IMG/VR virus record: IMGVR_UViG_3300045988_095709
Span: 33,509 to 97,508 of that record
Direction: 5' to 3' (one strand)
Source of the DNA: a virus
DNA length: 64,000 nt
Position 1 is the first letter of the stretch, and each line of letters opens with the position of its first letter. Shown here piece after piece: positions 9,041-64,000 of this stretch. Below the pieces are notes generated by a model, which was given only the letters and a program-made list of their open reading frames with translations, was not told the DNA's origin and made no database searches. A program made the translations under genes and the position numbers.

Positions 9041-9042
9041 TT

Positions 9043-10485: not shown

Positions 10486-10542
10486 TGCGTAAAAACATTT
10501 GTTTGTTTTTACAGGCACAAAAAACTAATTATAAATATAATT

Positions 10543-11722: not shown

Positions 11723-13243
11723 ATGAATACACTTTTAAACAATCTTCAACTTTATAGAGGACGTCGTTTCTCTGATCTGGTTGATGAAAACATGATTTCA
11801 AACGCACTATTAACAAAGCCTCATGAGGTTTCAGGTCTTCTTTCTCTTGTATTTGGTACAAAGGATGACGGAGTATCTACAGCTATTGACTTGATTACTG
11901 GAGGTCTTGGTAAAACAATGATTATCGAAAACCGCGAATATGAGTGGTCAGTAATGATCGACAGCGACCATGCGGTTAACATTCGTTATGCTAAGTATAA
12001 CGGAAAGGAGCTTACAGATTCAGATATCGATACAGTAACTCCTGGTATTAATGGTTCTCCTATTTATATAGGTCTCGAGGAGAAGTGGTTTGGACCTGGT
12101 GCAATTCTCTCATTCGACGATTATAATTTTCAGGTTCGTGTTAACGGAAAGCCCTATCAGGATGGAAGCACATGGGTATACGAGTGCTACGTTGCAGACG
12201 GATTTGCAAGCTCATATATTCCTGTTGAGTATCTTCTTCCTGGAAGACAGGTTAGCCGTATTGGTAGCGCATACGAAGAGTATAGCGACGAGGCAGATAT
12301 CATAAACTATCAGACACCGTTTAAGATGCGTAACAATCTTAACACACTCCGTCTGTCTTATGATATTACAGGTGACGCTTATTCTACAGTATTGGCTATC
12401 GCTCTGAAGGATCCTGAGACAGGTAAGACATCTTATCTGTGGGCAGATTACCAGTATTGGTTGGCTCTTCGTCAGTGGAAGAAGCGTGAGGAGACAATGC
12501 TTCTGTTCTCTCACTCTAACAGAAATGCTGACGGTACATACGCACTCAAGGGAACTAACGGACGTGTTGTTCCAATTAGCGCTGGTCTGTTTGAGCAGGT
12601 TTCTCCGGCAAATATTCGTTATTACACAACACTGACTGCAGAATTGCTCGAGGATTATCTGTTCGATCTCACATACAATCTTCTCGGAACACAGGAGCGC
12701 AAGTTTATGGCTCTTACTGGTGAGATGGGTATTCGTGAATTCGATCGCGTACTTCGCGAAAAGGCTGCTGGATTCCAGCTTATTGATACGAAATTTATTA
12801 CTGGCTCAGGTCAGGAATTGACACTCGGTGGTCAGTTTACAACATATAAGATGACAAACGGTATTGAGTTGACAGTTAAGCGTTGTGCTCTGTTCGACAA
12901 TATGGAACTGTTCCGTCAGCTCCATCCGATTTCTGGAAAACCGTTGATGTCATACACATTCTTGTTCGTAGATCTCGGACAGCGTGACGGACAGGCAAAC
13001 ATCGTTAAGGTTTGTCGTAAGGGTCGTGAGTTTGTACAGTGGGTTACTGGTGGTTCTGTAATTCCTAGCGGATATGCAAACAGCATCAATACTCTGCGTT
13101 CTAACTCTAGAGATGGTTATCAGGTTCACTTCCTCGGTGAATTCGGTATAATGCTTCGTAATCCTCTGTCTTGCGGTATTCTCTACTGCGATGCTGAAGA
13201 TACAGATATACGTAACGAGGGTAATGCTAACGTAACAGCGTAA
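11723..13243 (+). CDS. Major capsid protein (506 aa)
   Basis: This is an uninterrupted standard-code ORF with no TAG. It follows the scaffold-like gene and has a typical HK97-class MCP size. Its codon usage differs strongly from its neighbours: it favours AAG, CGT, CTT/CTC and GGT, 16 of its 17 Gln codons are CAG, and one sampled 60-nt line (12541-12600) has 31 G+C. A hairpin follows the stop. Confidence 0.7.
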   Translation: MNTLLNNLQLYRGRRFSDLVDENMISNALLTKPHEVSGLLSLVFGTKDDGVSTAIDLITGGLGKTMIIENREYEWSVMIDSDHAVNIRYAKYNGKELTDSDIDTVTPGINGSPIYIGLEEKWFGPGAILSFDDYNFQVRVNGKPYQDGSTWVYECYVADGFASSYIPVEYLLPGRQVSRIGSAYEEYSDEADIINYQTPFKMRNNLNTLRLSYDITGDAYSTVLAIALKDPETGKTSYLWADYQYWLALRQWKKREETMLLFSHSNRNADGTYALKGTNGRVVPISAGLFEQVSPANIRYYTTLTAELLEDYLFDLTYNLLGTQERKFMALTGEMGIREFDRVLREKAAGFQLIDTKFITGSGQELTLGGQFTTYKMTNGIELTVKRCALFDNMELFRQLHPISGKPLMSYTFLFVDLGQRDGQANIVKVCRKGREFVQWVTGGSVIPSGYANSINTLRSNSRDGYQVHFLGEFGIMLRNPLSCGILYCDAEDTDIRNEGNANVTA

Positions 13244-16312: not shown

Positions 16313-17371
16313 ATGATAACATACGTAAACACAGTGCTTGTTGGAAAAGGAGCAAGCGCAATTGTAAGCACAGATACAGAACTCGTGCACGAAAGTAAAG
16401 ATCTTACCAACGCTGGTAAGTATGTAATAATGGATATCGATAACGGAAAGCTTTTGTCAGCAGATACTGCAAACACAGCAAATAGAATTAAGATCGGTAT
16501 CATTCGTCCTGAAAATACTGCTATTCATCTTTCTGATGGTACAGTTAAGTATCATGACGTAATCAAGTGGTCAAACATAATAAGCAAGGATTCTATCATT
16601 TCTATTAACAGCCTTAAGTATGGTGCTGAGAAGAATACTGAAGAGAAGGTTACTGTAGATTTTTCTAATGTAAACACTCAGGTTATGGCAGACTTCGCTA
16701 AGGGAGGAAAGAGAATCGTTCTTCGTATTACTTATAAGGATCTTCCTACTAGATATCGTAAGTGGACTGAGTCTTATGAGTATATTACAGCTCCTGAGGA
16801 TACTGCAGATACTATTGCAGAGAGTTTTGCTGCTCAGATTAACGGACAGTACAAGAGAGCTAGAGTTACAGCTTCTGCTGCTTCTGGAGTACTTACTCTT
16901 ACAGCAATGCCTTATACAGATGATGATTCTAACGATTCTATCAACTGGGCAGAGACTGTACGTTTCAGTGTAAACTGCTACTTTACAGATCCTACTGCTG
17001 CAGCATTTGCTTCTAAGAACAAGTATGCAATTCTCGGTCTTGAGATCGAAAAGACTCCTGGAAAGAGATATGCTGCTGACGCTAAGCTTGTACGTGATCG
17101 TGAAGCTAATGCTATGGGTTACGAAGGAATCCTTAACAAGGGATGCTGCACTTGGCCTATCATCAAGCCGGCAATGCAGGTAGATATTACTAAGAACTAC
17201 GATGCTATTACATTGGAGTTCGAAAGAATGTATCGTGCTGCAGACGATATTTTCCGTAAGACGAAGGAAAGTATTGAGATCTATGACGTTACTGGATCTT
17301 TGACAGACGTTGCTAAGGCTATTAAGAATTTCTCAGGAATGACTATAGCCGGAGACGATCTTACAGCGTAA
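16313..17371 (+). CDS. Abundant virion protein, candidate auxiliary capsid or decoration protein (352 aa)
   Basis: This ORF is uninterrupted and TAG-free. It has the same G/C-ending, AAG/ATC/CGT-rich codon style as the MCP. Its stop context, ACAGCGTAATATT, is identical to that of the MCP, and its own hairpin plus T-run follows. Confidence 0.55.
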   Translation: MITYVNTVLVGKGASAIVSTDTELVHESKDLTNAGKYVIMDIDNGKLLSADTANTANRIKIGIIRPENTAIHLSDGTVKYHDVIKWSNIISKDSIISINSLKYGAEKNTEEKVTVDFSNVNTQVMADFAKGGKRIVLRITYKDLPTRYRKWTESYEYITAPEDTADTIAESFAAQINGQYKRARVTASAASGVLTLTAMPYTDDDSNDSINWAETVRFSVNCYFTDPTAAAFASKNKYAILGLEIEKTPGKRYAADAKLVRDREANAMGYEGILNKGCCTWPIIKPAMQVDITKNYDAITLEFERMYRAADDIFRKTKESIEIYDVTGSLTDVAKAIKNFSGMTIAGDDLTA

Positions 17372-21842: not shown

Positions 21843-21894
21843 AATTATGAATTTTTTAGATAAGACCGGACTTTAGTATTTTTGGGGAAAAATA
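21843..21894 (+). repeat. Conserved fibre-gene junction, copy 2
   Basis: It contains the same 21-mer and 18-mer as copy 1, spanning the start codon and first 16 codons of the next fibre gene. Confidence 0.8.
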
Positions 21895-22959
21895 CAAACA
21901 TATGTTTTAAATCAACTAGAAGCCATTCCTTTAGCTGGAAAATTTAATAACGGATTAATGTACGCTGGAGATAAATAGTTGATAGATAAATATAAATCCA
22001 TGTGGTAGGATATGTACGGATCTGGTGAAGACGGAAATATGCCATTAAAAAGTATAAACATATCATAGAGTGGTGGAAAATTAGTAATATAGAGCGGGTC
22101 GTAGGATTATTCTACAAGTACAAGTAATATAAAAGAAACAAAAAACATACCGACAGCGACAACATCCGCAGACGGAGCTATGAGTTCTTCTGATAAATAG
22201 ACACTTGATAATTTAAATTCTAAATTATAGGATATAGATTTTAGTAAATATTTTAAAGAAGGAAATATATATACTACTGATGACGAAAGTGTATCTTTAG
22301 ATTTATAGTATCTTAGAGATGTAAAAATATGGTCTTATTCTGGAGGAGAGCAAAAAGCAGCTATATTGGGACATTTTCATTCTGATGTTCCCGGAAGTAA
22401 ATTTTCCGTAATATATTAGGACGATACAGCAAATTCCGGACATCCTTTGGTGATAGAAACAATTCCTTATTTTGGAATATTGCTAGGAATGTCTGAAGGA
22501 ACTAGTGTTGGTTATTATACAGCAACAAGAGGAACATATTCTACATACATAGGAAGAGGTAATGTTTCGGTATGCGATTCTTAGAGTTCTACAGGAATAT
22601 TAACAGGAAAAAGAGTACAACTCACTTCAAAAGGATATCGTCCTGTTGATAAATAGGGATCTGTAACAATAGACGACACGTGGGCTAAAAATAATATGAA
22701 CAATATAGCTACTTGTGATGCCACTATGGTTGACGCAAAAGTCATAGATATAGATTACGATCATAAAATAGCTACAGTTAGAATAACGATACAAGATACA
22801 GAGGGGTAGTTTTTTTACGTTAAGACTGGAGGAATCGTAATAGGAGGAACAGCATCTTCAGCGGTAAACGGAGAATATTATGCTAACGTTGTATTATAGG
22901 TTCCGTACGATAGTAGTGGAAAAGTTTCGTTATACGATAAATACGCAATAACTTGGTAA
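21847..22959 (+). CDS. Tail fibre protein, paralogous N-terminus (370 codons)
   Basis: I read frame 1 line by line from ATG 21847 to TAA 22957-22959. It has 14 in-frame TAG, so no standard-code ORF of 60 aa or more appears here in the track. The N-terminus is MNFLDKTGL(TAG)YFWGKI, and it has two (A/S)xDK-x-(L/T)(I/L)D motifs. Confidence 0.75.
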
Positions 22960-25585: not shown

Positions 25586-26434
25586 ATGAAAAATTTAAAA
25601 GTTAGTATAATAATGTCTGCATATAATTCTGAAAATACAATAGACACTGCAATACAATCTGTATTAGAACAAACTTATGATAATTATGAATTAATAATTG
25701 TAAACGATTGTTCTATAGATGGTACATTAGATAGAATAAAGAAATATAAATCTGATAAAATAATACTAATAAATCATGAATTTAATATGGGATGCGGATG
25801 TTCTAGAAAAACAGGAATAGAAAATTCAACAGGAGATTATATTTGTTTTTTAGACAGTGATGATTATTATGATGACAGATATGTGGAAACATTAATAAAC
25901 TATGCAATACAATATAATGCTGACAGTATACAATCTGGTAGAATAATAATAAAATATGGAGAACTTATAGAAAAAATTCCTGAATTTTATGATATATCTG
26001 GATCAGACAAATTGATAATAGAACCGTCTGAAAACTATAAGTTTTTAAATTCAGCCATGTTTAAAAAAGAATTATTCGACAAAGTTGAATATTCTGAAAA
26101 CAGATATAACGAAGACGGTCCGACGATTACCAAATTAAATATGATATGTAATCGTAGAATATTTATTCCGTATGCTGGATATTATTATAATAACGATAAT
26201 GCAAACAGTCTTACTAAAAATTCAGATAATATTAAAAATATAATATATCATTCTTTAGGAGTGTTTGATGTTATAGATTTTGCGAATAATAATAATATAA
26301 AATACGATTGGAATCAACTTATAATACATACGTTGAACAATTTAAAAAATATAGAATATACACAAGACGTAATTTAGAAATATAAAAATGAATTATTACG
26401 TTTGTATTTATATATTATAAAATTAAATATATAA
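25586..26434 (+). CDS. Family-2 (GT-A fold) glycosyltransferase
   Basis: The N-terminus VSIIMSAYNSENTIDTAIQSVLEQTYDNYELIIVNDCSIDGT and the DxD motif FLDSDDYY are classic GT2 signatures. There is no internal TAG. The standard-code ORF ends at TAG 26375-26377. If that TAG is decoded, 19 more codons follow to TAA 26432-26434. The gene is very AT-rich (12 G+C in its first 60 nt). Confidence 0.85.
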
Positions 26435-26762: not shown

Positions 26763-27551
26763 ATGGAAGATAAAATCACAGAAAAAGTTTATTGTTATGA
26801 CCATCCTAGCGCTTATAACAACAATAACGCTTGGGAGGCTATGGCTCTTATGAATGGTGGATCAAATTGGTAGAATAACCCATTCATTTATTTAGTATGG
26901 ATGATGTTTGCTAATCGTATGTGGGGAGGAGAAAGAGATTGTGCAGGAAATGCTCAGTATATGGCTCTTCAGAACCAGATTAGCGATAACCAGAATGCGA
27001 ATTTGGTAATGGACGGTATTAAGGGAACTACCGATGCCGTTCGTCAGTTAGCAGCTAATCTAAATTGCGATTTCAATACTTTGAATTCTGCAATTTGCGA
27101 CGTACGCTCTGGCATACAGCAAGTGGCTGGACAAATCGGTTTCAGCTCCGAAAGAGTAATCAATGCTGTGAATATGGGCGATTGCAATGTTATTCAGGCT
27201 ATCCAGAACTGCTGCTGCCAAACACAGCAGAGTATCTTAAAGATGGGATACGAGAATCAACTTGCAAATTGCAATCAGACGAATGTTCTCTCTAATGCTA
27301 TACAAGGTGTAAACGTAGGATTAGAGCGCGGTTTCTCTGCAGTTGCGTATGAGACCCAGAAACAGACGTGTGACTTGCTTAACGCCGGAAATTCTAATAC
27401 ACAAAGAATAATTGATGTATTGAATAACCATTGGAATAGTGAGTTGCAGCAGAAGTATGATGATGTAAGAACAGAACTTTCTCAGTACAGACAGAGTGCT
27501 TATCTGATCTCTCAATTGAAGCCCACTTCAACTACTACTGCGGCTGCGTAA
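26763..27551 (+). CDS. Cys/Gln/Asn-rich repeat protein of unknown function, probably highly expressed (262 codons)
   Basis: It runs from ATG 26763 (alternative ATG 26901) to TAA 27549-27551 with a single TAG at 26871-26873. Codon usage is the CAG/AAG/CGT-rich style of the MCP. A hydrophobic N-terminal segment (PFIYLVWMMFANRMW) is followed by about four helical Cys-containing repeats (NCDFNTLNSAICD / GDCNVIQAIQNCCC / ANCNQTNVLSNAI / QTCDLLNAGNSN). Confidence 0.7.
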
Positions 27552-27577
27552 TTTAAAATTTTAAAATACGTGCAATG

Positions 27578-27604
27578 AAGGGAGTGGAAACACTCCCTTT
27601 TTTG
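27578..27604 (+). terminator. Canonical intrinsic terminator
   Basis: AAGGGAGTG (27578-27586) pairs with CACTCCCTT (27591-27599) around a GAAA tetraloop, and the T-run continues to 27603. Confidence 0.8.
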
Positions 27605-27626
27605 TTATTATACAATTTGAAAGATT

Positions 27627-28142
27627 ATGACATTTAAAGATTTAAAAACAAATTATCCTGTGTACTTATTTGATAAGAACATAGTGAAGTTGTATGAAGG
27701 TAAAGTAACTAATATAAACGCTCCTCATATTGATATTAAAAATGCTGGAGCAGGTAGAGGAATGGTTGTAGATGTAACAGTACAGTATAATACAGAAAAT
27801 AATGGAAATTAGACGTGTACTTATACTTTTAAAGATTCTACCGAAATAGGATACATAAACAGTCTTGTTATATCTACCGATAAAGATTTAATATTGAAAG
27901 AGGTTGAAGCATTATGTAATCAGTCTAAATAGATATTACAATCTGTAGAAACAAATAAAAATATAGTAAATCGTTGTCAAGATATCTTATCAGAATATAA
28001 TCCCGCAATAAAAGAGAAAAAAGAATACGATGAAAGATTTTCAAATTTAGAAAATCAAGTAAAAGATATGAAAAGTATGATAGAAACATTAGTAAATAAA
28101 TTAAATAATACTTCTGAAAATGAGCAACGAACAGAAAAATAA
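27627..28142 (+). CDS. Hypothetical protein (171 codons)
   Basis: It runs from ATG 27627 to TAA 28140-28142 with 2 TAG. The C-terminus is coiled-coil-like. It overlaps the next gene by 23 nt. Confidence 0.6.
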
Positions 28143-28620
28143 AATAGATAAGATGTCGGCTTACATAAGCGAAGACATCAACGAAAAATAGATACAAAAA
28201 TCTATAATACAAAAATTAATAACCGAAGCAAACAAATACGATAGAGAGTTTGTAGATAGGATGTATGAATACTACGACGGAATGAAGTAGTATAATAATT
28301 ATTTAACAGAAGACGAAGCTTCTTAGATACTGAGTAATTTTGTAAATTACGATGGTACAAAAGGAGCTATGTTTAAAAATTCAATGTGGTTGTTTAACAG
28401 ACTTGCTGAATAGAATTTACATTGTGAATGCGCTCCTAATTATAACAAATGGGCATTATATGTTACTATGAATAAATTCGCTTCAGATCAGGGAAATGTT
28501 ATAAATAAGTGGATAGGAGAAGATAAAGATAAATTTATAATTGCTTGTTATGATTTATCTACTGCTCAACTCTCAGATGCAGACAGACCGCATTGGGTTA
28601 GATCTTATTTTAATTTATAA
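28120..28620 (+). CDS. Hypothetical protein (166 codons)
   Basis: I read frame 1 line by line from ATG 28120 to TAA 28618-28620 and found 4 TAG. Confidence 0.6.
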
Positions 28621-28621
28621 T

Positions 28622-29056
28622 ATGATATTTTAGGCAGATGATACATTAATATAGGCAATATGTAATTTTGAAGGTTTAAGAACCACAGCTTATAAATGTC
28701 CGGCTGGTGTTTATACTATAGGGTATGGACACACAAAAGGAGTAAAAAAAGGACAAAAAATAACTAAACAACAGTCTGTGGAATATTTATACTAGGATTT
28801 ATAGCCTATTGTGGACTACCTAAACAGTATAAATGTGTGTAGAACACAAGGTTAGTTTGATGCCCTTGCCGATTTCATATTTAATTTAGGTACTTCTGCA
28901 TTCAAAAGATCTACGTTATATAAATACATAAAAAATAGATATTCCGACGACGCTATATGTAATCAAATAATGAGGTGGGTATATGCCGGAGGAAAAAAAT
29001 TAAACGGTTTAATAAAACGTAGATAGTGGGAATGCGATATGTGGAAATCAAAATAA
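28622..29056 (+). CDS. Endolysin, GH24 (phage lysozyme / muramidase) family
   Basis: It runs from ATG 28622 to TAA 29054-29056. The translation ...FEGLRTTAYKCPAGVYTIGYGHT...(Q)FDALADFIFNLGTSAF...WVYAGGKKLNGLIKRR.. matches the GH24 signature (E-G ... TIGYGHT ... Q-F/Y-DAL ... G-L-x-x-RR). It has 6 in-frame TAG in 144 codons, including codons 4 and 11. Confidence 0.9.
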
Positions 29057-29060
29057 CACT

Positions 29061-29585
29061 ATGAACATATTAGCATCTATTGGAAATACATTTAATACGA
29101 TAAGCAACGGTACAGAAATAGGAAAATTAGCTGTTGCTGCATCGGCTATATTAGTCGCATATATATCTCCAATAGTTGGATTGTTAATCGCCTGTTTTGC
29201 ATGTTCTATCACAGACATGATTTATGGAATCAAAGTAGCAAAACGGCTAGGAAAGAAAATCACTAGTAAAAAGAACTGGAAAGGAACTCTTACTAAAATA
29301 AAAGACGAATTTACTTTAATACTATTGGCACACCTATTAGAGTATGTAATAGGATATGGTGATAATTTCATACTATCTGGAGGTATAGCTGTGATTATAT
29401 GTTTGACTGAAATACTTTCTATATTGGAAAATCTAAACACACTAAACCCAGAAGGACCGTGGAAACTGATAAGTAAATTCTTAAAGAAAAAGGGTTCTGA
29501 CATAATGGATATAGATGACAATATAATTTAGCAAAATGATGACGATAATAAATTGGTTAATAAACAACAAAAGAATCGCCATTGA
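29061..29585 (+). CDS. Holin (multi-TM; phage_holin_4-like SILENL motif)
   Basis: The 156-aa standard-code ORF 29061-29531 has three or more hydrophobic segments and TEILSILENLNTLNPEGP. It lies directly after the endolysin. Its first stop is TAG 29529-29531. If that is decoded, 18 charged codons (QQNDDDNKLVNKQQKNRH) are added up to TGA 29583-29585. Confidence 0.6.
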
Positions 29586-30183
29586 TGCCATTCTTTGCGC
29601 CTGTGCTGCGTTATTTCTCGGTTATGGTATAATTATGCATAATCAAAATAAAAAGCTCTCAGAAAGCCTAGAAATGGCTAATAATAACATAGAGGCCTAT
29701 TAGGGTGTTATTTCAGCATCCTAGTAGGCCAATAATGTTTTAAAGCTATAGATGGCTGATTTGAAACAATATAATGATGAAGCTATAAATAAATTAGATA
29801 GCGTAAGAGAAGAATATAAAATAAATGCTAAAGATTTAAACACCGCTGCAACTTAGACTCAAACTATAGACGTTAATAAGAGTAAGGGGGTAGGGGGTTA
29901 GATTGTTGTAGTAAATGATACTATATATAAAGATAGTATATAGTACAACGATCTTACTAAAGTATTTTATACTATAGGAAAAGATAGTGTAAATATAAGA
30001 TTAGATTTTAAAAATACTTAGTATTTATATATTTATAAAAAGAAAGAATATAAAAATAAGAAAAATTTTTTCCAACGCTTATTTACTTTAGATTTCAAAA
30101 AAGTAACTAGATATAAATATAGAATAATAAACACAAACAATTTGATTAAAGAAGATAGCGTTAGAGTAATAGAACAGAGTTGA
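29536..30183 (+). CDS. Spanin-like protein (N-terminal TM plus coiled coil), the third gene of the lysis cassette
   Basis: I read frame 1 line by line from ATG 29536 to TGA 30181-30183 and found 8 TAG. The TM segment AIDAILCACAALFLGYGIIM is followed by a helical region. The function is inferred from position and topology only. Confidence 0.4.
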
Positions 30184-30184
30184 T

Positions 30185-30859
30185 ATGAATATGTTTTCAC
30201 TTAAATCAATGATAGACGATATACTATTATTGGTACGCAATAATAATATTAGCGAAAGTGAAGACCTGTCGAGAGCATAGATTGCAACATGGGTACTTGC
30301 GTATAAATCGTACTTGATAAACAAAAAGAACGAAAAAAACGAAGACGACGGAGAAGATAAATCCGACGATAGTTTTTAGACTACAATAGGACCTGTAGAA
30401 CTAATCGAAGAAGAATCTCTCGATAATACGTGTCTTCACAGAAAAAGAACTAAAGAAAAAATACCAGAGTTATTAGGAGACAGTGACGCAAACATAATAA
30501 GTGTGTGTGATCAAGAAGGATGTGTCATACAAAAGATGAATGATAAACGTAGACATTATCATTATTTCAGAAAATACACATTCGGAGAAATGACATACTG
30601 GTATGAAAACGGGTACGTTTATGTACAAGGACTTACTGATTTAAACAGACTCAAATATATTTGGATTACAGGTAACTTTGTAGATACTACAGACGAAGAT
30701 GAAGATTCTATACAAATACCTGGATGGATGGTTCCAGATATTAAAAAATTAATATTTAACAATGAATTAGCGTTTATGTTAAGCCTACCTAGCGACGACG
30801 ATAATAATTCTACATTATCGGGAATAAAACCAAAGGGAGATTAGCAGAATGAAAAATAA
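30185..30859 (+). CDS. Hypothetical tail-module protein (224 codons)
   Basis: It runs from ATG 30185 to TAA 30857-30859 with 3 TAG, and overlaps the next gene by 11 nt. Confidence 0.6.
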
Positions 30860-31301
30860 TTCGTTTACTTATAGAGATTCTTATAAAGAATATACAAAAA
30901 CCAACGGTAAAAATATAGATTATTCTACTTATAAAAACATTTTATACGAATTTAGTAATGTTATACTTAATAATTTGTTATATAAATCAGAATGTATAAC
31001 GATGCCTTACGGATTTGGATATTTGTGTATAGTGAAATATAAACCTAAAACTTTAGATAAAAACAGATTGTCTATAGATTATAAATCTTCCAAAGAGTTT
31101 GGAAAGATAATATATCATCTTAATGAACATTCCGATGGATATAAATATAGATTATTCTGGTCTAAAATACCAAAAACATTTCCGGAAAGATATAAATATC
31201 AATTACAACTTGTAAGGAAAAATAAAAGACTGTTGGCAAAACTTATATTTAACAATCAAGATTATATAAACATAGATGATATACAAATATACAAAATGTG
31301 A
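30849..31301 (+). CDS. Hypothetical basic protein (150 aa, TAG-free)
   Basis: This uninterrupted ORF ends in TGA and is Lys/Tyr-rich. crAss-like tail modules often contain a small DNA-binding (IHF-like) protein, but I could not verify any motif. Confidence 0.55.
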   Translation: MKNNSFTYRDSYKEYTKTNGKNIDYSTYKNILYEFSNVILNNLLYKSECITMPYGFGYLCIVKYKPKTLDKNRLSIDYKSSKEFGKIIYHLNEHSDGYKYRLFWSKIPKTFPERYKYQLQLVRKNKRLLAKLIFNNQDYINIDDIQIYKM

Positions 31302-32208
31302 ATCTGTCATCGCTAAGATAATGGCTGATTCAGATATGCAAGAAAAAGATATAAGAATATCTGATATCAGGGAATGGATATTTGAAGCTGTTGAGAAAAT
31401 AGGCGCTCCTATGCAATATATATAGAAAGAATCCGGTTCAGACGGATTTCCGATATTAAAAGTATAGGATCATCAAGTTCCTATCCCAGAAGATCTACAG
31501 CATTTAAATGCTGTTGCATATTCTACAAATGAAGACGGACCGTGGGTTCCTGCTAGAACCGAAACAGGACAATTTAAAAGTAATCCTGTAAAATGCAGCG
31601 GACCAAAATTACCAATAGGTCCAATGTATGATTTAGATAATTTAGCAATAGATAGACCTGAAAATTGTATAGAATAGGAAGATCCGAAATAGCCAATGAG
31701 ATATAAACTTCCTACTACTCAAAGTTAGTTCTACGAGGTCAATCTTACTAAATACGCAGATAAAAATTTAGATGTTTTGAGAAAAGATGTTACGTTTTTT
31801 ACAAAACCCGGATGGATAGTATTGAATAGAAAAGACGGATATGTAAAATTATCTTATAAAGCAATAGCAGTAGATGAACGAGGATATCCATTAATACCCG
31901 ATTTAGCATCTTATCAGGAAGCAATATATTGGTACGTTATGATGAAATTATCATTTCCTAAATACTTATAGGGAAAATTAGGAGGAAGTATATCTGCTTC
32001 ACAGAAAGTATATTTTTATCTGCACCAACAATGGAATTTCTATAGGAATCAAGCATACGCAGAAGCTATGATGCCTACAGAAAGTGATATGAGAAGTATT
32101 AAAAACGAATGGAATAAATTAATTCCAGAATGGGATTCTGATGACACGTTCTTTAAAGGTGTTGGAAGAAGACAATTAAATTATAACGATTACTATTATG
32201 GGTACTGA
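31276..32208 (+). CDS. Hypothetical tail structural protein (310 codons; alternative start 31321)
   Basis: I read frame 1 line by line to TGA 32206-32208 and found 6 TAG downstream of 31321. It overlaps the next gene start by 11 nt. Confidence 0.6.
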
Positions 32209-40641: not shown

Positions 40642-43600
40642 ATGGATATAAAAAGAATGCAAGGCGTCGCTTCATAGATTGCAGTATAGAATGCAAATCA
40701 ATGGGAGTGGGACGTACTTAGACGAGAGCGTCTTAGAGAATTAAGCAAAAGAAGATAGTAGAATAATAATACGGGATCTTCTAATACTAAATAGAAGGAA
40801 CAACAGCAATAGAACGAGTAGGCTCAATAGTCGCAACAAGGCGGCTTTAAGCCTACTTATTCTGCTACATAGAGTTCTCAAAATAAAAACATAAATCTAC
40901 ATCCTTTCTTTCTGAATGACGACGATTCAAATACAGATCCTAATTAGTTTTTATAGCCTATAGAGGTTTAGAATATGGGCTGGAATACACAAACTAAGAA
41001 TTGGATAAACGAAGGATCTACTGGAAATCAACAAAGAAGAATAAATAACAGAAACGAAATATTAGCTAGATCTAAATATAATGTTGATTTATAGTTGCAA
41101 AGAAAGAGAAACATAGCAGAAAATAGTAGGAATGGAGATATGGATTTCTATTATGCTCCATACGAAGATGCTGTAAAAGAATACGAAAAAGAAAAGCAGT
41201 GGTATATAAATACAGATCCTAGAGTATTAGAAGCTAAAAGAAAATACGAATAGATAAAGTCAGGAGAACAGCCTGAAGGATATTTTGACAGAGCTTTGTA
41301 TGCGTTAGGTCAGATATCTACTCTCGATGTGCACGGTGTTGTTAACGGAATACAATCGATATTTGCTGGTAATAAAGCTAAAAAACAAGATTTACTAAAC
41401 GATGCGTACAACGTATGGATGTAGAGAAAAAATGAGACACAGATAGCTACATCTAATGGTAAACTACAAATAGCTGATTAGATATCTAACGTGTTAGACT
41501 CTTCTTCTATAGATAGATATGTAGATGTATGTAACCAATTAATAGCAGATACAGATAGAAGAAATAGTCTTATAGACAAATATACTAGTAGAACAGGATA
41601 GGGTATTACTAGAGAAGAGTCTTTGGAATTAGACATGTTGAAAAACAGAATAAATACACTTACTAAGGAAAAAGACGAATTTGAAAAAAACATAGAATCT
41701 GCAGGAACATACGAATCTAATACTTTGTTGGGAGCTGCAATATCTAATGCGCAAGAATATTTAACCAGTGGAGGAGGTTCTTTTAATTTTGATTTTGGAA
41801 CTGGACTTGGTGGATCTCTATTAGGATTTAGAGAGAACATAACCAAATTGTAGAAAGGATTGGCTACAAGAAATCCTCAGATGGTTGAAGAAGCAAGACA
41901 GAACCTTAAAAGAATAAGAGGTGCTTACGAGAATCAATCTTAGAAAATGAAAAATCTCTGGAGAAAAGATATCGAAAGAGATACTAAAGATTTGAATAGT
42001 TATACCAGCAAATATACAGTTAGTGATTACTTTTTAAATAAAGAACAAGAAGCAAATCAAATATTAAATCCGTTCAATCCTAAGAAGTTGTGGATGGCTC
42101 CTGGTCTTTTAGGAGCATCTTTGTCTGATACTAATAAAATGGCTGTTAGCACAGCTACTGGACTTCTTACTATGTTGCCGATAGGAAGAGCTGCACGAGT
42201 AGGATTACAAGCTGCAAACTATGTGTCGTAGGTAGCTCAGGGAGCAGACGAAAACTTTGCTAACGTAGATTAGGCATACAAAGAGATAGTAAGATCGTCT
42301 TTGACTGAACAAGGATAGTATAGAACGTTTTTATAGGACGGTAGAGAAGCTATCGGAAATCCTGCTGCTACTGACGAGGATATAATAAACGCTTATTTCA
42401 GAGGAGATTATATTCCCAAAGACATAAAAGTCAGAAAGACTTTAATGAATGCTACTACAGGTTCAATGAAGTAGTTCATGTAGGGACAGGGAGTTAATCT
42501 ATTAGACTCTTGGATAGACATGGCTATAGAAACTACACCTGTTGGTAAGTTTGCAAAACTGTCCAAAATAGAAGCTGTAAAGGGCGCAAAACAAGGTCTT
42601 GCGAACATTGGAGAATCGTTAGCTGGAACTAAAGCTGGTCAATTTGTAACAAGTGCTCTAAAGAATTCAAAAGGAAAAGCTACACAGCTTGTAGACAAGA
42701 TGGTAGAGTATGGAGTACGAAGAACAGCAAACGTTTCACAGATAGCCAAAGAGATGCCAAAAAGACTTCTACAGACTAGATATAATCTTGGAGTAGCAAA
42801 TAGAGCAGTAAAAGATATAGCTAAGAGATCTGTGATAGGAGCCTACTCTGAAGCAGTAGAAGAAGGTTTGCAGCAAGAACAGCAATACGAAAGAATGCAC
42901 AATCCTTCTGATTAGTACTATGATGTCTATAAATAGATTCCTAATACTATACTGGGAGGTCCTAGATTGTGGTATTCTTTATTGTTCAAAGATCCAGACA
43001 AGGCTTCGTAGGAAGAATAGGAAATATGGCAAAGCATGGCTGGTGGTATATTAGGATCTTTTGTACAAGGAGGTTCAATGAATATTGTTCGTACTGGAGT
43101 AGACGCTGTACAACAGATGAAGGATGGAGATATCATACTCAACAATATAATAGCTGATAAAATAAACGGTGACACTCAAATCGAAAAGGCAAAGTTGTAT
43201 TCTAAAAAACTAAGAACATAGAGGGGAAAACAAAACCTGATAGATGTATTAGATTAGTATTAGCAATATAATGATAAACTAAATCAATCATATAAAGAAG
43301 GTGGTGTAAAATAGGGAATACCAGAAGAGTGGATAGCTGAAGATAAAGCTATGGTGTAGGATATAGAAAACATTCGATATTCACAAAAAACACAACAGTT
43401 AGCTAATAGATTGGGAATCAAAAATAAAAAGTTCAATCTTATAGACAACGACGATTACGATCTACTTGTAGCGATGCTATATAGAAATCAACAGCAAATA
43501 AAAGAAGACAACGATTCTTTAAGTGAGGTTGTACGTAATCAAGAAAAACAAACTCCTATTACTTTTAACCAGTTCTTAGAAAATCAAGTAAGTGCTGGAA

Positions 43601-46600
43601 ATTTAGATTAGAATTTCTTATAGAGTTATATCGGAGAGCAAAACGGAATAACAAGTTTGGTAAATACTGAAAATTTATCAGAAGAAGAGTTAAACAATGT
43701 TTAGAAAAAATATCAAGAATTACAAAATAGATATAATAATTACATTTCTAACATAGATACGATAGCTAAGCTTGCTGCTAATATGAAAACTCTTCAAGAG
43801 ATAAAAGCTCTTGATAGACTTAACGGTAGACAGTCTTTTATACAAAAACGCGTAGAAAGAGAAGTCAATAAAATAAAACAAAATATAAATAAAATATACG
43901 AACAGCAAGGAAAGCAAGCTCATAAGATGGATACTCTTTCTGACGTAGAAGATTTTTATAAGAAAGCAGGTCTTCCTATAAGTGAGGATTATATAAATAA
44001 CATAAAAACTATAGATGAATACAAATTACAACGAGATTTATCTATAGAAAAAGCTTATAAATTTATAACAGATCCCAAATACGCTAAAAAACAACTGTCT
44101 CAATACAAAGAAACTAAAAAACAAGACGAGTATTTACAACAACAAGTTGAGTCTGACTACTATGATAAAGTTCTACACGATTATGCCGTACAAGACGCTG
44201 AAATAAACGACAGTAATAATATATATGTCGGAGAAGATGGAAAAACTTATGCGGTAAGACTGAATGTAGCAAAAGACGAAAATGGAGAAGACGTTGAGTA
44301 TTATTCTAAACATCTATATGATCCAAAAACTGACGTAATGGACAGAAGTGAACTTCCTTTCGATAAAGAAGAATGGTTCGACGGAAGAGATCAGATAGAT
44401 GATATGACGCAAATAAAATCTCCTCAACTTAGAGAAAACGACGGATCTGAAGAACGTGTAGAAGAATTTTCTAAAAGACGAGATGTAAACGAATAGAAAC
44501 AAAAATATACTCAAGATCTATTAAACGATAAGAGTAGAAATGGTTATACAAGTAGAGCGAATCGTATAGAATCTTTTGTAGATGAAAATTATTCTCCGTA
44601 CAAAAGAGGAAAACAGTATTTCTTAAAGAACGGAGAAGAAGAATTAGAGATAACAAAGACGGAATATAATTACGCTAAATGGTATAAGAAAAACTATTAT
44701 ACAGAACAACAAGAGGAAACACAAGACGATGTTCAAACCGAATAGGAAAATATAGACGGACAGCGTGATAACGTTGAACCACAGGTTTAGAAAGAAGAGA
44801 AACCTTCTGGACCAGAAGAATCTCAGAACACTGAACAAGAACAACCGATAACAAATAAAGAAGTAGAACAACCTGCGAGCGAACCTGAACAGAATCAATA
44901 GGAACAACAAGATTAGGAAGAAGATCAGAAGGTTCCAGATATAAAAATGACAGACGCTCAGAAAAATGTTATATAGGATCTTTCTCAGTTTAAGGTAGAA
45001 GGTAATAAAAAAATAAGATACGATTTGCGTTCTCCTATGGATTATTTTATAGAAGACGAAGATGGAAATATACAAGCGTATCCTAGAGTACATAGTAAAC
45101 TTAAGAAGATGTTCGAATTAGACCATACTGTATATGACAATATGAATTCTATATTCGAAGAACTTGAGAAATACAGACTTGATTTTATCGATGCATTCAA
45201 ACATAGAAATGACAATCAAGATGCCGCAGATAAATATAAAAAGTCTAAAATTTCATACATAAATAAAATAAAACAGTTACAATAGGAATACAACGAGTCA
45301 TTATTGAAAACTGTAAAAAATAATGAAAACTTGTACGATTTCTATAATGTTATTTTGGATGGATATTATTCTAACGATAATATACTAATGAGCAAATCCA
45401 CTACCGATCATATATCTAAAATAGTAGGAAATAGGATTGGTGATAAGGTACAGTTACCTGCTACTTCTGTAATATCTGGTACAATAGTTGACGAAATATG
45501 TAGAAGATGTTTTAGTGGAGAAGATGTTAAAAACGAACCGAGATTCAAAATGGACGATTCTACATTCGAACAACTTAAACAAGACATAATAGATGTAAAG
45601 TCTGACTTCGAAAGCAAAGGTTGGATACTACTTCCGCAACAATATTGTTGGTATACTGAATTAGAAGGAATAGGAAGAATCGCAGGAGAAACAGATATGT
45701 TGGCTGTTGATACTGACGGTTCTGTATATCTTATCGACTTTAAAACAAGTAAGAGATCTTATAAATACGGAACTCAAGTTAAAATTAGTGGGGATAAGTT
45801 AATCACACAACCTTCTAATTACGTAGAAGCTATAGACTGGAGTTTTGCAAAATCTAACTTTTCAGCAAGAGACGAATATAGAACACAGTTTACTTTGTAC
45901 TCTATGATGATACAACAGTGTACTATGTAGAGGCAGAAAGTAAAAACAATAAATATATTAGGATTTACCGTAAAAGCTTCTGTTTCAGATAATGATCTTG
46001 TACAAATTAAATCAATAGAAAAACCTAATTTTATAGAGTTAGAAATACAGGATGATTTGAATACTTATTTGATTTTTGACGAAGATTCTTAGAACACAAT
46101 AAGAAAAGAAAAAGAAAATTATTTAATTCTCATAAATCATATAGAAAATCAGTTACAATCTGATAAAAACTATTTAAATCAGCATTTCGATGAAATAAAT
46201 AAGAGTTCAAACTTATATAGAGAGTTAGAACAACTTTCTACTAGAACTAAAGATATAAAATCTAGAATAAATAAAATAGATATAAACAAAGATCCTGTAT
46301 CTGAATTGAAAAACATTCACGATCAATATCTGTAGTTATCTACTGATTACAGTAATGCTGTACAAAAAGTATAGGATTACTTATCTTAGAAAGCTGAACA
46401 ATATCAACAAGAACAAACACCTACAGTATCTACACAAAGTATACCTGTAGATATACAGTGGGACTTTAAAGAAATAGAAAAATACGATCGTGTATGGTAT
46501 ATAAACGTATCTAGGCAGAACGAAAAGCTTAGACAATTCAGAAGGATTACTACAAATAAAGATTTTATCGAAAACACTACTTTCTATTTGGATACAAACA

Positions 46601-62133: not shown

Positions 62134-62182
62134 AAAGGAGACTATAATTCCGATTTTTTCGGAACTATAATCTCCTTTTTTT
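62134..62182. terminator. Bidirectional intrinsic terminator at the convergence of the plus and minus transcription units
   Basis: AAAGGAGACTATAATTCCG (62134-62152) pairs with CGGAACTATAATCTCCTTT (60160-62178 region, 62160-62178), giving 19 bp with 2 mismatches. A T-run lies downstream on the plus strand and an A-run upstream, which is a T-run on the minus strand. It overlaps the last codons of the minus-strand gene 62142-62660. Confidence 0.7.
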
Positions 62183-62660
62183 GTAATCTATGCGAATCGC
62201 TTATCGTGTATTGAAAATCTATTTCAGGCACGGATTCAACTTCAAAATTATATTTGTTTTCAGAAGGATTCAATACGTATTTAGTAAAATTAATATCCGA
62301 TGTTCCCCAGAATTTTAATATAATTTCTGGTTTATAAATCATCGGATACACACTTTTTATCATGCGTTTTACTAAATGATCGACAGTTTGAATCGCATAG
62401 ATTGTATAGGATTTTCCATTTATCATGTATACTTTTGAACTTCTTAGATTTTTAAGCTTTAAGAATTTAAAGTATCTTTCCTGACTATCTATTGTTTTTA
62501 TAGAATTATCGTACATTAAAAAGATACAATCAAAAATAGCCGGTCTGTTGATATCGTAATTATACGCATTAACAAAACCGGCTGAATAGCTAAAATCCTT
62601 TTGTGAAATTGCAGTACTACTAAATAATAAAGGAATTATAGCTTTTATTTTAACAGACAT
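62142..62660 (-). CDS. Hypothetical protein (172 aa), standard code, TAG stop
   Basis: The ORF is uninterrupted and its stop codon is TAG (complement of 62142-62144). The N-terminus is hydrophobic and signal-like (MSVKIKAIIPLLFSSTAISQ). Confidence 0.7.
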   Translation of the reverse strand: MSVKIKAIIPLLFSSTAISQKDFSYSAGFVNAYNYDINRPAIFDCIFLMYDNSIKTIDSQERYFKFLKLKNLRSSKVYMINGKSYTIYAIQTVDHLVKRMIKSVYPMIYKPEIILKFWGTSDINFTKYVLNPSENKYNFEVESVPEIDFQYTISDSHRLQKKEIIVPKKSEL

Positions 62661-62667
62661 ATTGATT

Positions 62668-63699
62668 CTAAGATTCTAATGTTTCAAACCCGTTATTGTT
62701 ATAATATTCTAAATGATGATCCCACTTATTATTAGCATAATGCCAACAAATTTGTGATAACGAGTCATTTACTGTTTTTTCTCTACTTTGTATTTGTTCT
62801 TTAGTGATTTTAAATACACGTATTTCTGGTAATACGGATGTACTTATGCAAATAATATTACAGTCGAATTTCCATTCTTCTGCGTTTTCACCAAGAATGT
62901 TTTCTAAAAACCATTTTGTAGCTTTTATGTAAAAACAAATTTGTCTGAAATAATCGTATTCTTTAACACTATCTTCAAAATGACCTATTTTATTAGTAGT
63001 TTTCAAATCAGAAATTGTACAAATTTTATTTTTAAAATTAAAATTTATACTGTCAAGTAACGATTTACAGTTTATTACTCCGTATTCTGTTTTAAACTCC
63101 CAATCGATTCGGAATTCATGATATGTTACTCCTTCTGTAGGATATAATATCTTATTTGCAGCTTTATGCTGTTTTACTAAATATTCTAAAAGTAATAGAT
63201 TCGTTTTAGAATTTTTAGTTATGAGTTCTACTTTAGGATATTTGGTCTTAATATCTATGTAATTCTTTAGCTTATTGGCTATTTCCTTTGCTTTAGACAG
63301 TATCAAATCGTTCGAGCTTCCAGTTGTCTTATACGATGATTTATAAGCGCTTAGAAGCGATTTATCAGGCATTATTTCTACGCTATTAATTAGCATACTA
63401 CAAAACTTTTCCTGATTTACTGATTGCGGTTTTTCACCGTTGAACACCATATAATTCTTATCAAACTCTTCTGGTTGTAATAAAAACATATGTATCATTG
63501 TTCCTTTTGATAAATACTCAGTAGATATAGTATCGAAAGTTCTATCATTTAATTTTTTATATAAATACGCAGGACCATTTTTCAAAAAATAACCAACATC
63601 ACTATTACTTATCTTGCAACTAGAATAATATTCTGTTTCAGTATTAAGATTAGTAATGTATTGATTTATCTTTTCTATTTGTAATTCTTCGTTATTCAT
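62668..63699 (-). CDS. PD-(D/E)XK exonuclease (RecB/Cas4/YqaJ-like), replication/recombination module
   Basis: This uninterrupted 343-aa ORF contains ...CTISDLKTTNK... (D-x-K core) followed by ...YFRQICFYIKA (QxxxY). Its stop codon is TAG (complement of 62668-62670). Confidence 0.65.
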   Translation of the reverse strand: MNNEELQIEKINQYITNLNTETEYYSSCKISNSDVGYFLKNGPAYLYKKLNDRTFDTISTEYLSKGTMIHMFLLQPEEFDKNYMVFNGEKPQSVNQEKFCSMLINSVEIMPDKSLLSAYKSSYKTTGSSNDLILSKAKEIANKLKNYIDIKTKYPKVELITKNSKTNLLLLEYLVKQHKAANKILYPTEGVTYHEFRIDWEFKTEYGVINCKSLLDSINFNFKNKICTISDLKTTNKIGHFEDSVKEYDYFRQICFYIKATKWFLENILGENAEEWKFDCNIICISTSVLPEIRVFKITKEQIQSREKTVNDSLSQICWHYANNKWDHHLEYYNNNGFETLES

Positions 63700-63707
63700 A
63701 TAAAAAA

Positions 63708-64000
63708 TTAATTCTGAATTTCAATATTCAAATCGTTTAGAAGATCTAACTCCTTAGAATCTGGATATAACTGTACTTCGTATAAAAAGTTAATAATATT
63801 ATCAAAACTTTTAACTTTGAATTTGTTAATTAAATCCAAACATCTTATTTGTTTCTTTTCATCGTCCTTTATTATTTCGTTTATGAGATTTGATATACTA
63901 TTGTTATCCAATCCTTCAAACTTCTTATAATATCGAATACGAGAACAACGATCTATCAGATTTTCATTAGCAAAATTTTCATCGTTACAAGTAAATAATA
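63708..64000 (-). CDS. Hypothetical protein, 5' end outside the window
   Basis: The frame stays open upstream of the track's TTG start (63911) to the window edge. The stop is TAA (complement of 63708-63710). Confidence 0.55.
   Translation of the reverse strand, partial: LFTCNDENFANENLIDRCSRIRYYKKFEGLDNNSISNLINEIIKDDEKKQIRCLDLINKFKVKSFDNIINFLYEVQLYPDSKELDLLNDLNIEIQN

What the first reader, a model, noticed from the sequence alone, without database searches (positions are those of the whole stretch)
28622..30183. Lysis cassette with asymmetric recoding: a TAG-free holin beside a TAG-dense endolysin and spanin-like gene
The endolysin has 6 TAG in 144 codons and the spanin-like gene has 8 in 215. 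The holin between them has none until its terminal TAG (29529-29531). In the standard code the holin is a complete 156-aa protein. With TAG decoded it gains an 18-residue, highly charged tail (QQNDDDNKLVNKQQKNRH) ending at TGA 29583-29585, which overlaps the spanin-like start. Charged C-terminal tails are known to tune holin triggering. Suppressor level could therefore both unlock the muralytic enzyme and switch the holin isoform, tying lysis timing to the code switch.
Basis: inference. Interest (0 to 1): 0.75.

Follow-up and report, generated by a model that had tools for sequence, protein, structure and literature searches.

The report
Ordinary recoded crAss-like phage lysis cassette
This is a normal endolysin-holin-spanin lysis cassette of a gut crAss-like phage that reads TAG as glutamine; the holin's "terminal" TAG is most likely one more glutamine codon inside its conserved tail, not a switch.

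Summary
The endolysin (28622-29056) has 6 TAG, the spanin-like gene (29536-30183) has 8, and the holin has none before 29529-29531. Reading through gives 18 more residues up to TGA 29583-29585.

The interpretation mostly fails. Sixty distinct holin homologues from related TAG-recoded crAss-like phages are all 170-182 aa. All end in TAA or TGA 38-53 nt inside the downstream gene, and all carry a 23-29-residue hydrophilic tail. The 174-aa read-through form fits this pattern; the 156-aa form does not. A "TAG then extension" arrangement is not conserved: 30 homologues have no TAG, 19 have TAGs in the body, and 6 have one only in the tail, at varying positions.

The holin looks TAG-free because its first 156 codons contain no glutamine codon at all. 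Twelve of the 33 late genes in the window have a TAG within their last 20 codons.

The TAG-dense lysozyme and spanin are real and clade-wide. Borges et al. already published this for crAss-like phages, and Peters et al. confirmed TAG=Gln by mass spectrometry. A suppression-dependent pair of holin isoforms is not excluded, but nothing here supports it. Low interest.

The parts
28622..29056 (+). Endolysin, GH24 phage lysozyme, 144 aa, 6 in-frame TAG (Gln); soluble, with no N-terminal SAR or TM segment visible
   Evidence: Pfam PF00959 E=2.4e-40 and PHROG 7 endolysin E=9e-53. PDB GH24 lysozymes match at E=4e-21. TAG codon 78 aligns with the conserved Q of the 'TQNQFDAL' motif. The motif E17-x8-C26-x5-T32 was read directly from the sequence. 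The start is confirmed by 143-aa homologues in relatives.
29061..29585 (+). Holin, full-length form of 174 aa (Phage_holin_4_1). Predicted to have four TM segments, a basic cytoplasmic loop, and a cytoplasmic C-terminal tail.
   Evidence: Pfam PF05105 E=1.3e-12 (48.3 bits against a cutoff of 22.2) and PHROG 199 holin. Hydropathy and charge analysis. The length, tail and overlap match 60 homologues.
29529..29531 (+). TAG, codon 157 of the holin. Most likely a Gln sense codon within the tail. In the standard code it would end a 156-aa C-terminally truncated product.
   Evidence: It lies at tail position 12 of 29. Relatives have ordinary sense codons here and continue for 11-17 more codons. The +4 base is C, whereas 23 of 33 true stops in the window are followed by T. 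It is identical in strains L004 and L065.
29496..29582 (+). Holin C-terminal hydrophilic tail, residues 146-174 (SDIMDIDDNIIQQNDDDNKLVNKQQKNRH, net charge -3), following the conserved KFLKKKG motif
   Evidence: Alignment of 34 homologues. Tail lengths are 23-29 in all complete homologues. Charges.
29583..29585 (+). TGA, the most likely true stop codon of the holin
   Evidence: It is followed by T, the usual context of true stops here. All 33 late genes in the window end in TAA (25) or TGA (8).
29536..30183 (+). Spanin-like gene, 215 aa, 8 in-frame TAG. It has an N-terminal TM segment, a coiled-coil region with weak Rz-like similarity, and a conserved C-terminal domain of about 115 aa with unknown function.
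   Evidence: PHROG 739 Rz-like spanin E=8e-5. Six of 14 family members hit it. TM segment at about residues 14-32. The N-terminus is conserved from the first residues in 31 relatives, so the start and the overlap are real.
29536..29585 (+). 50-nt overlap between the holin tail (frame 0) and the spanin-like start (frame +1)
   Evidence: An overlap of 38-53 nt is present in every relative that has both genes.
29701..29727 (+). Three TAG codons of the spanin-like gene (29701-29703, 29722-29724, 29725-29727; motif AYq..Sqq), conserved as TAG across the clade
   Evidence: TAG at each of the three positions in 36 of 41 distinct DNA versions. Synonymous CAA occurs in only 2 of 41 at the first position and never at the other two.
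62142..64000 (-). Start of the standard-code early module on the opposite strand. Two of its three ORFs end in TAG as a real stop.
   Evidence: ORFs are intact in the standard code. Stop codons. The sister-strain contig continues with DNA polymerase and other early genes in the standard code.

Best explanation
The region is the lysis cassette of a TAG-to-glutamine (code 15) recoded crAss-like phage, in the order Crassvirales and near Suoliviridae/Oafivirinae. It encodes a soluble GH24 endolysin, a four-TM PF05105 holin and an Rz-like spanin-like membrane protein, all inside the recoded late module.

The real holin is the 174-aa product ending at TGA 29583-29585. TAG 29529-29531 is an ordinary recoded Gln codon in the poorly constrained, hydrophilic, predicted-cytoplasmic C-terminal tail.

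The holin is otherwise TAG-free simply because a small membrane protein has almost no glutamine. The endolysin and, above all, the spanin-like gene are Gln-rich and prefer TAG. Their full-length yield therefore falls as roughly the 6th and 8th power of the per-codon suppression efficiency. This makes them steeply dependent on the late code switch, which is the already published 'recoding gates lysis' model.

Shown here: gene identities, TAG=Gln, conservation of the long holin form, conservation of the overlap, and the composition argument. Inferred: membrane topology, the power-law gating, and the claim that the long form predominates at the time of lysis.
For: 1. Recoding. ORF content triples with TAG as sense. 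TAG columns are 6-9-fold enriched for Gln in homologues. An endolysin TAG aligns with an invariant Q in solved GH24 lysozymes. TAG=Gln in crAss-like phages is validated by MS (PMC9523058). The relative cr131_1 carries a tRNA with anticodon CTA just upstream of its late module.

2. The long holin form is the family norm. Sixty distinct homologues are 170-182 aa, with a 23-29-aa tail after KFLKKKG, a TAA/TGA stop, and a 38-53-nt overlap with the next gene. The window's long form has 174 aa, a 29-aa tail and a 50-nt overlap.

3. Holin TAG placement varies. Of the 60, 30 have no TAG, 19 have one in the body, 6 have one only in the tail and 5 have one only at the N-terminus. Tail TAGs fall at positions 148, 157, 158, 162, 165 and 181.

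4. Composition. The holin body has 0 Gln codons. The long form has 1 TAG among 4 Gln codons, against a window share of 0.31. The pooled clade TAG share of Gln codons is 0.29 for holins, 0.54 for the spanin-like gene, 0.35 for the endolysin slot and 0.20 for other genes.

5. A TAG within the last 20 codons occurs in 12 of 33 late genes. One example is 25586-26434, whose only TAG lies 18 codons before its stop.

6. Stop context. True stops are followed by T in 23 of 33 cases. The holin TAG is followed by C and the holin TGA by T.

7. Yield model. If the endolysin needs at least 10% full-length yield, per-codon suppression must be at least 0.68, so at least 68% of the holin would be the long form (inference).

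8. Borges et al. report the lysozyme and spanin families, but not the holin, as preferentially TAG-recoded in crAss-like phages.
Against: - No suppressor tRNA was found in the window or in about 25 kb beyond its right end on a sister-strain contig. The decoding agent for this particular phage is therefore not shown. The unsampled stretch upstream of window position 1 is where cr131_1 has its tRNA.
- TAG is a genuine stop in this phage's early genes, so it is not excluded as a terminator in principle.
- With TAG as the stop, the holin would end 4 nt before the spanin ATG, which is a typical compact junction. The 50-nt overlap is the largest in the window.
- The 17-codon open frame after the TAG would occur by chance with P about 0.32.
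- The tail's sequence similarity to relatives ('DDNKLV') lies in DNA that also encodes the conserved spanin N-terminus 'TIINWL'. That similarity is therefore not independent evidence.
- No expression data exist.
Confidence: 0.85

Rival explanations
1. TAG157 is a suppression-dependent switch. Before or at low suppressor level, a complete 156-aa holin is made. As suppression rises, an 18-residue charged tail is added, changing the holin's triggering time and coupling lysis timing to the code switch.
For: - The 156-aa product keeps all four predicted TM segments and the basic juxtamembrane KFLKKKG motif.
- In this lineage, and in L011 and L117, the only holin TAG lies in the tail, so unsuppressed translation would not destroy the protein.
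- RF1 competition should give some truncated product at any TAG (established knowledge).
- Cytoplasmic C-terminal tails tune lambda S timing (Blasi et al. 1999, J Bacteriol 181:2922, seen only as a reference in PMC7312051; content from my own knowledge).
Against: - The arrangement is not conserved. Thirty of 60 homologues have no TAG and 19 have TAGs that would truncate the holin mid-protein. Tail TAGs sit at scattered positions.
- The same 'TAG near the end' pattern occurs in 12 of 33 late genes.
- There is no TAG avoidance or enrichment in holins once Gln content is accounted for.
- Any cell able to make the 6-TAG endolysin must read the single holin TAG efficiently.
Confidence: 0.07
2. In this lineage the TAG has become the real terminator. 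The holin is a shortened 156-aa protein, and the downstream 54 nt are just the 5' end of the spanin-like gene that happens to stay open in the holin frame.
For: - There are 4 nt between the TAG and the spanin ATG, like other compact junctions in the window.
- Early genes of this phage terminate at TAG.
- The chance of an open 17-codon frame is 0.32.
Against: - The gene sits between genes with 6 and 8 sense TAGs on the same strand, 4 nt and -50 nt away, so it is translated when TAG is being decoded.
- All 33 late genes end in TAA/TGA.
- The TAG lacks the +4 T typical of stops here.
- All homologues keep a 23-29-aa tail.
Confidence: 0.05
3. The TAG is a sequencing or assembly error in the window.
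For: None.
Against: The same TAG and an identical tail are present in two independent assemblies: IMGVR_UViG_3300045988_119203 (L004) and ERZ857521 NODE-215 (L065). These differ from the window elsewhere in the cassette.
Confidence: 0.01

Closest known systems
Preferentially TAG-recoded lysis cassette of crAss-like phages (Borges et al., bioRxiv 10.1101/2021.08.26.457843; published in Nat Microbiol 2022)
   Same: - TAG-to-Gln recoding of a contiguous late structural and lysis module.
- A standard-code early module.
- A lysozyme family and a spanin family that prefer TAG over CAA/CAG.
- The proposal that suppression gates lysis.
- Here the endolysin TAG share is 0.55 and the spanin-like share is 0.62, against a window share of 0.31. 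The spanin-like share clade-wide is 0.54.
   Different: This particular genome is not in the GenBank phage collection; the best MCP identity is 89%. I did not check whether it belongs to their data set. No suppressor tRNA was found in the sequence available.
Lambda S holin C-terminal cytoplasmic regulatory tail (Blasi et al. 1999)
   Same: A small multi-TM holin with a charged, predicted-cytoplasmic C-terminal tail following the last TM segment.
   Different: It belongs to a different holin family (PF05105, not lambda S) and has four predicted TM segments rather than three. The tail here is net acidic (-3, and -7 or so in relatives). No functional data exist. Resemblance only.
Lambda S105/S107 dual-start holin/antiholin
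   Same: One gene could in principle give two products that differ by a short charged terminal segment.
   Different: In lambda the difference is N-terminal, produced by two start codons, and conserved in lambdoid phages. Here the difference would be C-terminal, produced by incomplete TAG suppression, and it is not conserved among relatives.
Rz/Rz1 two-component spanins
   Same: An N-terminal TM anchor followed by a coiled-coil region, located immediately downstream of the holin. Weak hits to Rz-like spanin PHROGs.
   Different: No o-spanin lipoprotein gene was found embedded or adjacent. The protein has an extra conserved C-terminal domain of about 115 aa that is absent from Rz. E-values are weak (8e-5 at best).

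Membership tests
Code-15 (TAG=Gln) recoded crAss-like phage late module | In-frame TAGs break genes in the standard code, and reading TAG as sense restores long ORFs | tested here: met
   ORFs of at least 100 aa total 7,789 aa in the standard code and 22,700 aa with TAG as sense. There are 326 in-frame TAGs in 33 genes.
Code-15 (TAG=Gln) recoded crAss-like phage late module | TAG positions correspond to glutamine in homologues | tested here: met
   Gln is enriched 6-9-fold at TAG columns. Endolysin TAG78 aligns with the conserved Q in PDB lysozymes 9kbq, 9kbs and 9kbt. MS validation in other crAss-like phages is in PMC9523058.
Code-15 (TAG=Gln) recoded crAss-like phage late module | Phage-encoded suppressor tRNA with anticodon CUA | tested here: inconclusive
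   None in the window or in about 25 kb of a sister contig beyond it. It is present in the relative cr131_1 at 9258-9330, upstream of the late module. The equivalent region of this phage was not available.
Code-15 (TAG=Gln) recoded crAss-like phage late module | Early/replication genes remain in the standard code | tested here: met
   Minus-strand ORFs at 62142-64000 are intact in the standard code and two of them stop at TAG. The sister contig's early genes are likewise intact.
Crassvirales | Homologous major capsid and tail-ring proteins | tested here: met
   The MCP (11723-13243) is 82-89% identical to Suoliviridae/Oafivirinae members and Dulem virus 42. Pfam CrAss_Ring_2 hits 30185-30859 with E=3e-52.
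Holin, Pfam PF05105 Phage_holin_4_1 | Profile match above the curated cutoff | tested here: met
   48.3 bits against a cutoff of 22.2, E=1.3e-12, residues 34-139.
Holin, Pfam PF05105 Phage_holin_4_1 | Small membrane protein with TM segments and a hydrophilic charged C-terminus, encoded next to an endolysin | tested here: met
   Hydrophobic stretches at 22-55, 84-97 and 102-122, a basic loop with net charge +8, and a charged tail. The endolysin ends 4 nt upstream.
Holin, Pfam PF05105 Phage_holin_4_1 | Membrane-permeabilising activity that releases endolysin | not testable with these tools
   Needs expression in a host.
GH24 phage lysozyme (PF00959) | Profile match and the catalytic Glu-x8-Asp/Cys-x5-Thr motif | tested here: met
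   138 bits against a cutoff of 22.3. E17-x8-C26-x5-T32 was read from the translation.
Two-component spanin, i-spanin (Rz-like) | N-terminal TM anchor plus periplasmic coiled coil | tested here: met
   TM segment at about residues 14-32. PHROG Rz-like spanin hits cover residues 18-99. Coiled-coil-type matches to PDB appear.
Two-component spanin, i-spanin (Rz-like) | Partner o-spanin lipoprotein gene, embedded, overlapping or adjacent | tested here: not met
   No ORF with a signal peptide and lipobox was found in any + frame of 28000-31500. The protein is therefore called 'spanin-like', not a proven i-spanin.
Programmed dual-isoform holin (regulated read-through) | Conservation of the recoding signal (TAG followed by a short extension) among relatives | tested here: not met
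   Only 6 of 60 distinct homologues have a tail-only TAG, at positions 157 (three sequences, all this lineage), 162, 165 and 181. Thirty have none.
Programmed dual-isoform holin (regulated read-through) | Two protein products with different lysis timing | not testable with these tools
   Needs proteomics and lysis assays.

The most novel reading that the evidence does not exclude
In this lineage, and independently in L011 and L117, the holin carries its only TAG in the C-terminal tail. Incomplete suppression would then yield a mixture of a 156-aa tail-truncated holin and the 174-aa full-length holin, with the ratio tracking suppressor activity. If the tail modulates triggering, as in lambda S, this would be a C-terminal holin isoform pair set by the state of the genetic code. 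That would be a new way to time lysis.
Probability: 0.07. Interest if true: 0.6.

Novelty: new member of a known kind. Interest (0 to 1): 0.15.

Why it matters
It matters mainly as a caution. In TAG-recoded phages, a gene that looks complete in the standard code and 'ends' in TAG can simply be a Gln-poor gene with a late sense TAG. Comparison with relatives settles its true 3' end.

The cassette is one more instance of the published pattern in which lysozyme and spanin genes of crAss-like phages are loaded with TAG, while the holin is not. That pattern suggests that any code-based lysis lock acts on the endolysin and spanin rather than on the holin.

The three spanin TAGs, kept as TAG in 36 of 41 divergent sequences, are a clean site for testing that lock experimentally.

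Tried and rejected
- **Suppressor tRNA of this phage.** ARAGORN on the window found none. I walked about 25 kb past the right end on sister contig IMGVR_UViG_3300045988_119203 in three steps. That gave only tRNA-Leu(TAA) and a permuted tmRNA.
- **Region upstream of the window.** An exact 31-mer from the window's left end has no match in IMG/VR. A look-up of the standard-code product 3850-4179 returned only a 531-bp contig. The region upstream of window position 1 therefore stayed out of reach.
- **Megablast of the cassette** against GenBank phages gave only short matches of 71-76% identity. Relatives had to be found by protein search.
- **o-spanin search.** A lipobox scan of all + frames of 28000-31500 found nothing credible.
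- **Profile of the spanin-like family against PDB sequences** gave only coiled-coil noise, with E of at least 0.08.
- **Structure prediction** of the spanin-like protein was not attempted. Alignments built from fetched loci are not accepted by that tool, and single-sequence models are unreliable.
- **Blasi et al. 1999** could not be read because it is not held. Its content is cited from my own knowledge.
- **Tail TAGs clustering at one homologous position** was considered and rejected. The positions are 148, 157, 158, 162, 165 and 181, and body TAGs likewise cluster in the hydrophilic loop (residues 63-79). TAGs sit where Gln is tolerated.
- **The 'DDNKLV' match** between the window tail and L031 was rejected as independent evidence. 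The same DNA encodes the conserved spanin N-terminus TIINWL in the +1 frame.

Full report
**What is there.** The window is 32% GC and almost entirely one + strand block of genes that make sense only if TAG is a sense codon. ORFs of at least 100 aa total 7,789 aa in the standard code and 22,700 aa with TAG read through. TGA or TAA as sense gives no comparable gain. Thirty-three late genes carry 326 in-frame TAGs, which is 1.6% of codons and 31% of all Gln codons. All 33 end in TAA (25) or TGA (8).

The phage belongs to Crassvirales. Its major capsid protein (11723-13243) is 82-89% identical to Dulem virus 42, cr272_1, cr131_1 and cr130_1, of which cr131_1 and cr130_1 are classified in Suoliviridae, Oafivirinae. 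The gene after the cassette matches Pfam CrAss_Ring_2. At 62142-64000 the strand flips to ORFs that are intact in the standard code, and two of these three end in TAG as a true stop. This is the layout described for TAG-recoded crAss-like phages: a recoded late module and a standard-code early module.

**The observation.**
- Endolysin 28622-29056: 144 codons, 6 TAG.
- Holin from 29061: first in-frame TAG at 29529-29531.
- Read-through: QQNDDDNKLVNKQQKNRH up to TGA 29583-29585.
- Spanin-like gene 29536-30183: 215 codons, 8 TAG, overlapping the read-through by 50 nt.

The gene identities also hold.
- The endolysin matches PF00959 (E=2e-40) and solved GH24 lysozymes.
- The holin matches PF05105 Phage_holin_4_1 (48 bits against a cutoff of 22).
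- The third gene gives weak but repeated hits to Rz-like spanin PHROGs over its TM and coiled-coil part.

Two other assemblies of near-identical strains (L004, L065) have the same TAG and tail, so it is not an error.

**Is the TAG the end of the holin?** I collected holin homologues from GenBank phages, IMG/VR and metagenomes. Each was translated from its start to the first TAA or TGA. Sixty distinct sequences are complete.
- All are 170-182 aa, apart from one 206-aa call caused by an upstream ATG.
- All end in TAA or TGA.
- All have a hydrophilic tail of 23-29 residues after the conserved KFLKKKG motif.
- Wherever the downstream gene is present, the holin runs 38-53 nt into it.

The N-terminus of the downstream protein is conserved from its first residues, so the overlap is real. 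The window's read-through form (174 aa, 29-residue tail, 50-nt overlap) fits this family exactly. The 156-aa form, with an 11-residue tail and no overlap, would be unique. So the 'extension' is the normal tail, and TAG157 lies inside the gene.

Two smaller points agree with this.
- True stops in the window are followed by T in 23 of 33 cases. The holin TGA is followed by T, and the TAG by C.
- The gene lies 4 nt after a 6-TAG gene and overlaps an 8-TAG gene, so it is translated when TAG is being decoded.

**Is 'TAG then short extension' conserved?** No. The 60 homologues fall into four groups.
- No TAG at all: 30.
- TAG in the body (loop 63-79, 102-103, 145), which would cut the holin mid-protein in the standard code: 19.
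- TAG only within the first 10 codons: 5.
- TAG only in the tail: 6.

Three of the six tail-only sequences are this same lineage. The others have the TAG at positions 162, 165 and 181. Tail TAGs also occur alongside body TAGs, at positions 148 and 158. TAGs sit where a hydrophilic residue is tolerated and show no fixed position.

Within the window, 12 of 33 late genes have a TAG in their last 20 codons. One is 25586-26434, whose single TAG lies 18 codons before the stop. That is the same picture as the holin.

**Is the recoding asymmetric?** Per codon it looks so: 0/156 against 14/359, Fisher p=0.007. But the first 156 holin codons contain no glutamine codon of any kind.
- In the long form, 1 of 4 Gln codons is TAG. 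This does not differ from the window share of 0.31 or from the neighbours at 14 of 24 (p=0.31).
- Pooled over the relatives, holins have 1.5% Gln and a TAG share of 0.29. Flanking 'other' genes have 3.7% Gln and a share of 0.20.

Holins do not avoid TAG. They are Gln-poor membrane proteins. Other genes in the window are also TAG-free, including the 506-aa capsid protein, the 352-aa gene at 16313-17371 and the 150-aa gene at 30849-31301.

What is real is the TAG preference of the neighbours.
- Endolysin: share 0.55.
- Spanin-like gene: share 0.62 here and 0.54 clade-wide.
- The GH24 endolysins of relatives carry 5-6 TAGs, some at fixed positions.
- Three spanin TAGs (29701-29703, 29722-29727) are TAG in 36 of 41 distinct DNA versions despite about 55-63% protein identity.

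This is the published finding of Borges et al.: in crAss-like phages a lysozyme family and a spanin family are among only four families that prefer TAG. They interpret this as a translational lock on lysis. TAG=Gln in crAss-like phages has MS support. It is also supported here by Gln enrichment at TAG columns and by a TAG aligned with an invariant Q in solved lysozymes.

**Mechanism.** Shown: the gene identities, the code, the long holin form and the clade-wide TAG bias.

Inferred:
- The holin has a TM1-TM2 hairpin (22-55), a strongly basic cytoplasmic loop (56-83, net +8), TM3 (84-97), TM4 (102-122) and a cytoplasmic C-terminus with a basic cluster followed by an acidic tail.
- If each TAG is read with efficiency s, full-length endolysin scales as s^6 and the spanin-like protein as s^8, but the holin only as s. 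For 10% endolysin yield, s must be about 0.68, at which point two thirds of the holin is already the long form.
- Any code-based gate therefore acts on the endolysin and spanin, and the long holin dominates when lysis can occur.

A minor truncated 156-aa product is likely, as at any suppressed stop. Nothing indicates that it is used.

**What remains open.** I could not find the suppressor tRNA of this phage.
- There is none in the window.
- There is none in about 25 kb beyond it on a sister contig.
- The relative cr131_1 has a tRNA(CTA) upstream of its late module, in a region I could not reach for this phage.

The 'spanin' label is weak. No o-spanin lipoprotein partner was found, and the conserved C-terminal half has no known relative.

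**Verdict.** The cassette is an ordinary member of a known and published kind. The specific new idea, a holin isoform switch, fails its own conservation test and keeps only a small residual probability.

Noticed in passing
L062 7736-8036 (sister-strain contig IMGVR_UViG_3300045988_119203, outside the window); also L041, L049, L054, L056, L058 and L064 30572-30935: These TAG-recoded crAss-like phages encode a permuted tmRNA in the early region. ARAGORN tag peptides are conserved (GTKNVIDYSCVA*, GNVNNIVDYTHVA*, GNYNVVDYTHVA* and others). Rfam RF04321 tmRNA_permuted scores 47.6 bits against a gathering score of 47. It is annotated as tmRNA in RefSeq for cr131_1. Whether it relates to the code switch is unknown.
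   Followed up: partly
window 29701-29703 and 29722-29727: Three TAG codons of the spanin-like gene (motif NNIEAYq.....Sqq) are kept as TAG in 36 of 41 distinct DNA versions from relatives. Almost no synonymous CAA/CAG appears, which suggests selection for TAG itself at these sites.
   Followed up: yes
window 28613-28975 compared with L004: The sister strain is about 97% identical from 28613 rightwards, but 67 of the 79 differences in the cassette fall within the first 354 nt of the endolysin. Upstream of 28613 the two strains are not homologous. This looks like a mosaic or recombination boundary at the endolysin. More distant relatives have an unrelated gene in this slot; in cr131_1 and cr130_1 it is annotated as a 142-aa putative transpeptidase.
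   Followed up: partly
window 11723-13243 and 21847-22959: The two genes show opposite extremes of TAG use. The major capsid gene has 0 TAG, and 16 of its 17 Gln codons are CAG. Gene 21847-22959 uses TAG for 14 of 19 Gln codons (share 0.74), the highest in the window.
   Followed up: no
window 62142-62660 and 62668-63699 (minus strand): These early-module genes, intact in the standard code, terminate at TAG. The 343-aa gene has a TAA 6 codons further on. The same phage therefore uses TAG as a stop in early genes and as Gln in late genes.
   Followed up: partly
window-wide, late genes: True stop codons (TAA/TGA) are followed by T in 23 of 33 genes, against a background of 22%. In-frame sense TAGs are followed by the ordinary mix of first-codon bases (A 43%, G 29%, T 23%, C 5%).
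   Followed up: partly
window 40642-56760: A single 5,372-codon ORF with 104 in-frame TAGs, followed by a 1,766-codon ORF with 36. The corresponding region of cr131_1 also holds a giant annotated CDS (record 47198-60316). These ORFs were not analysed.
   Followed up: no
H16 (Dulem virus 42, 7596-10811) and H21 (cr131_1, 27412-29755): In these relatives the major capsid gene matches in two or three pieces interrupted by annotated HNH or other endonuclease genes. The window's capsid gene is uninterrupted.
   Followed up: no
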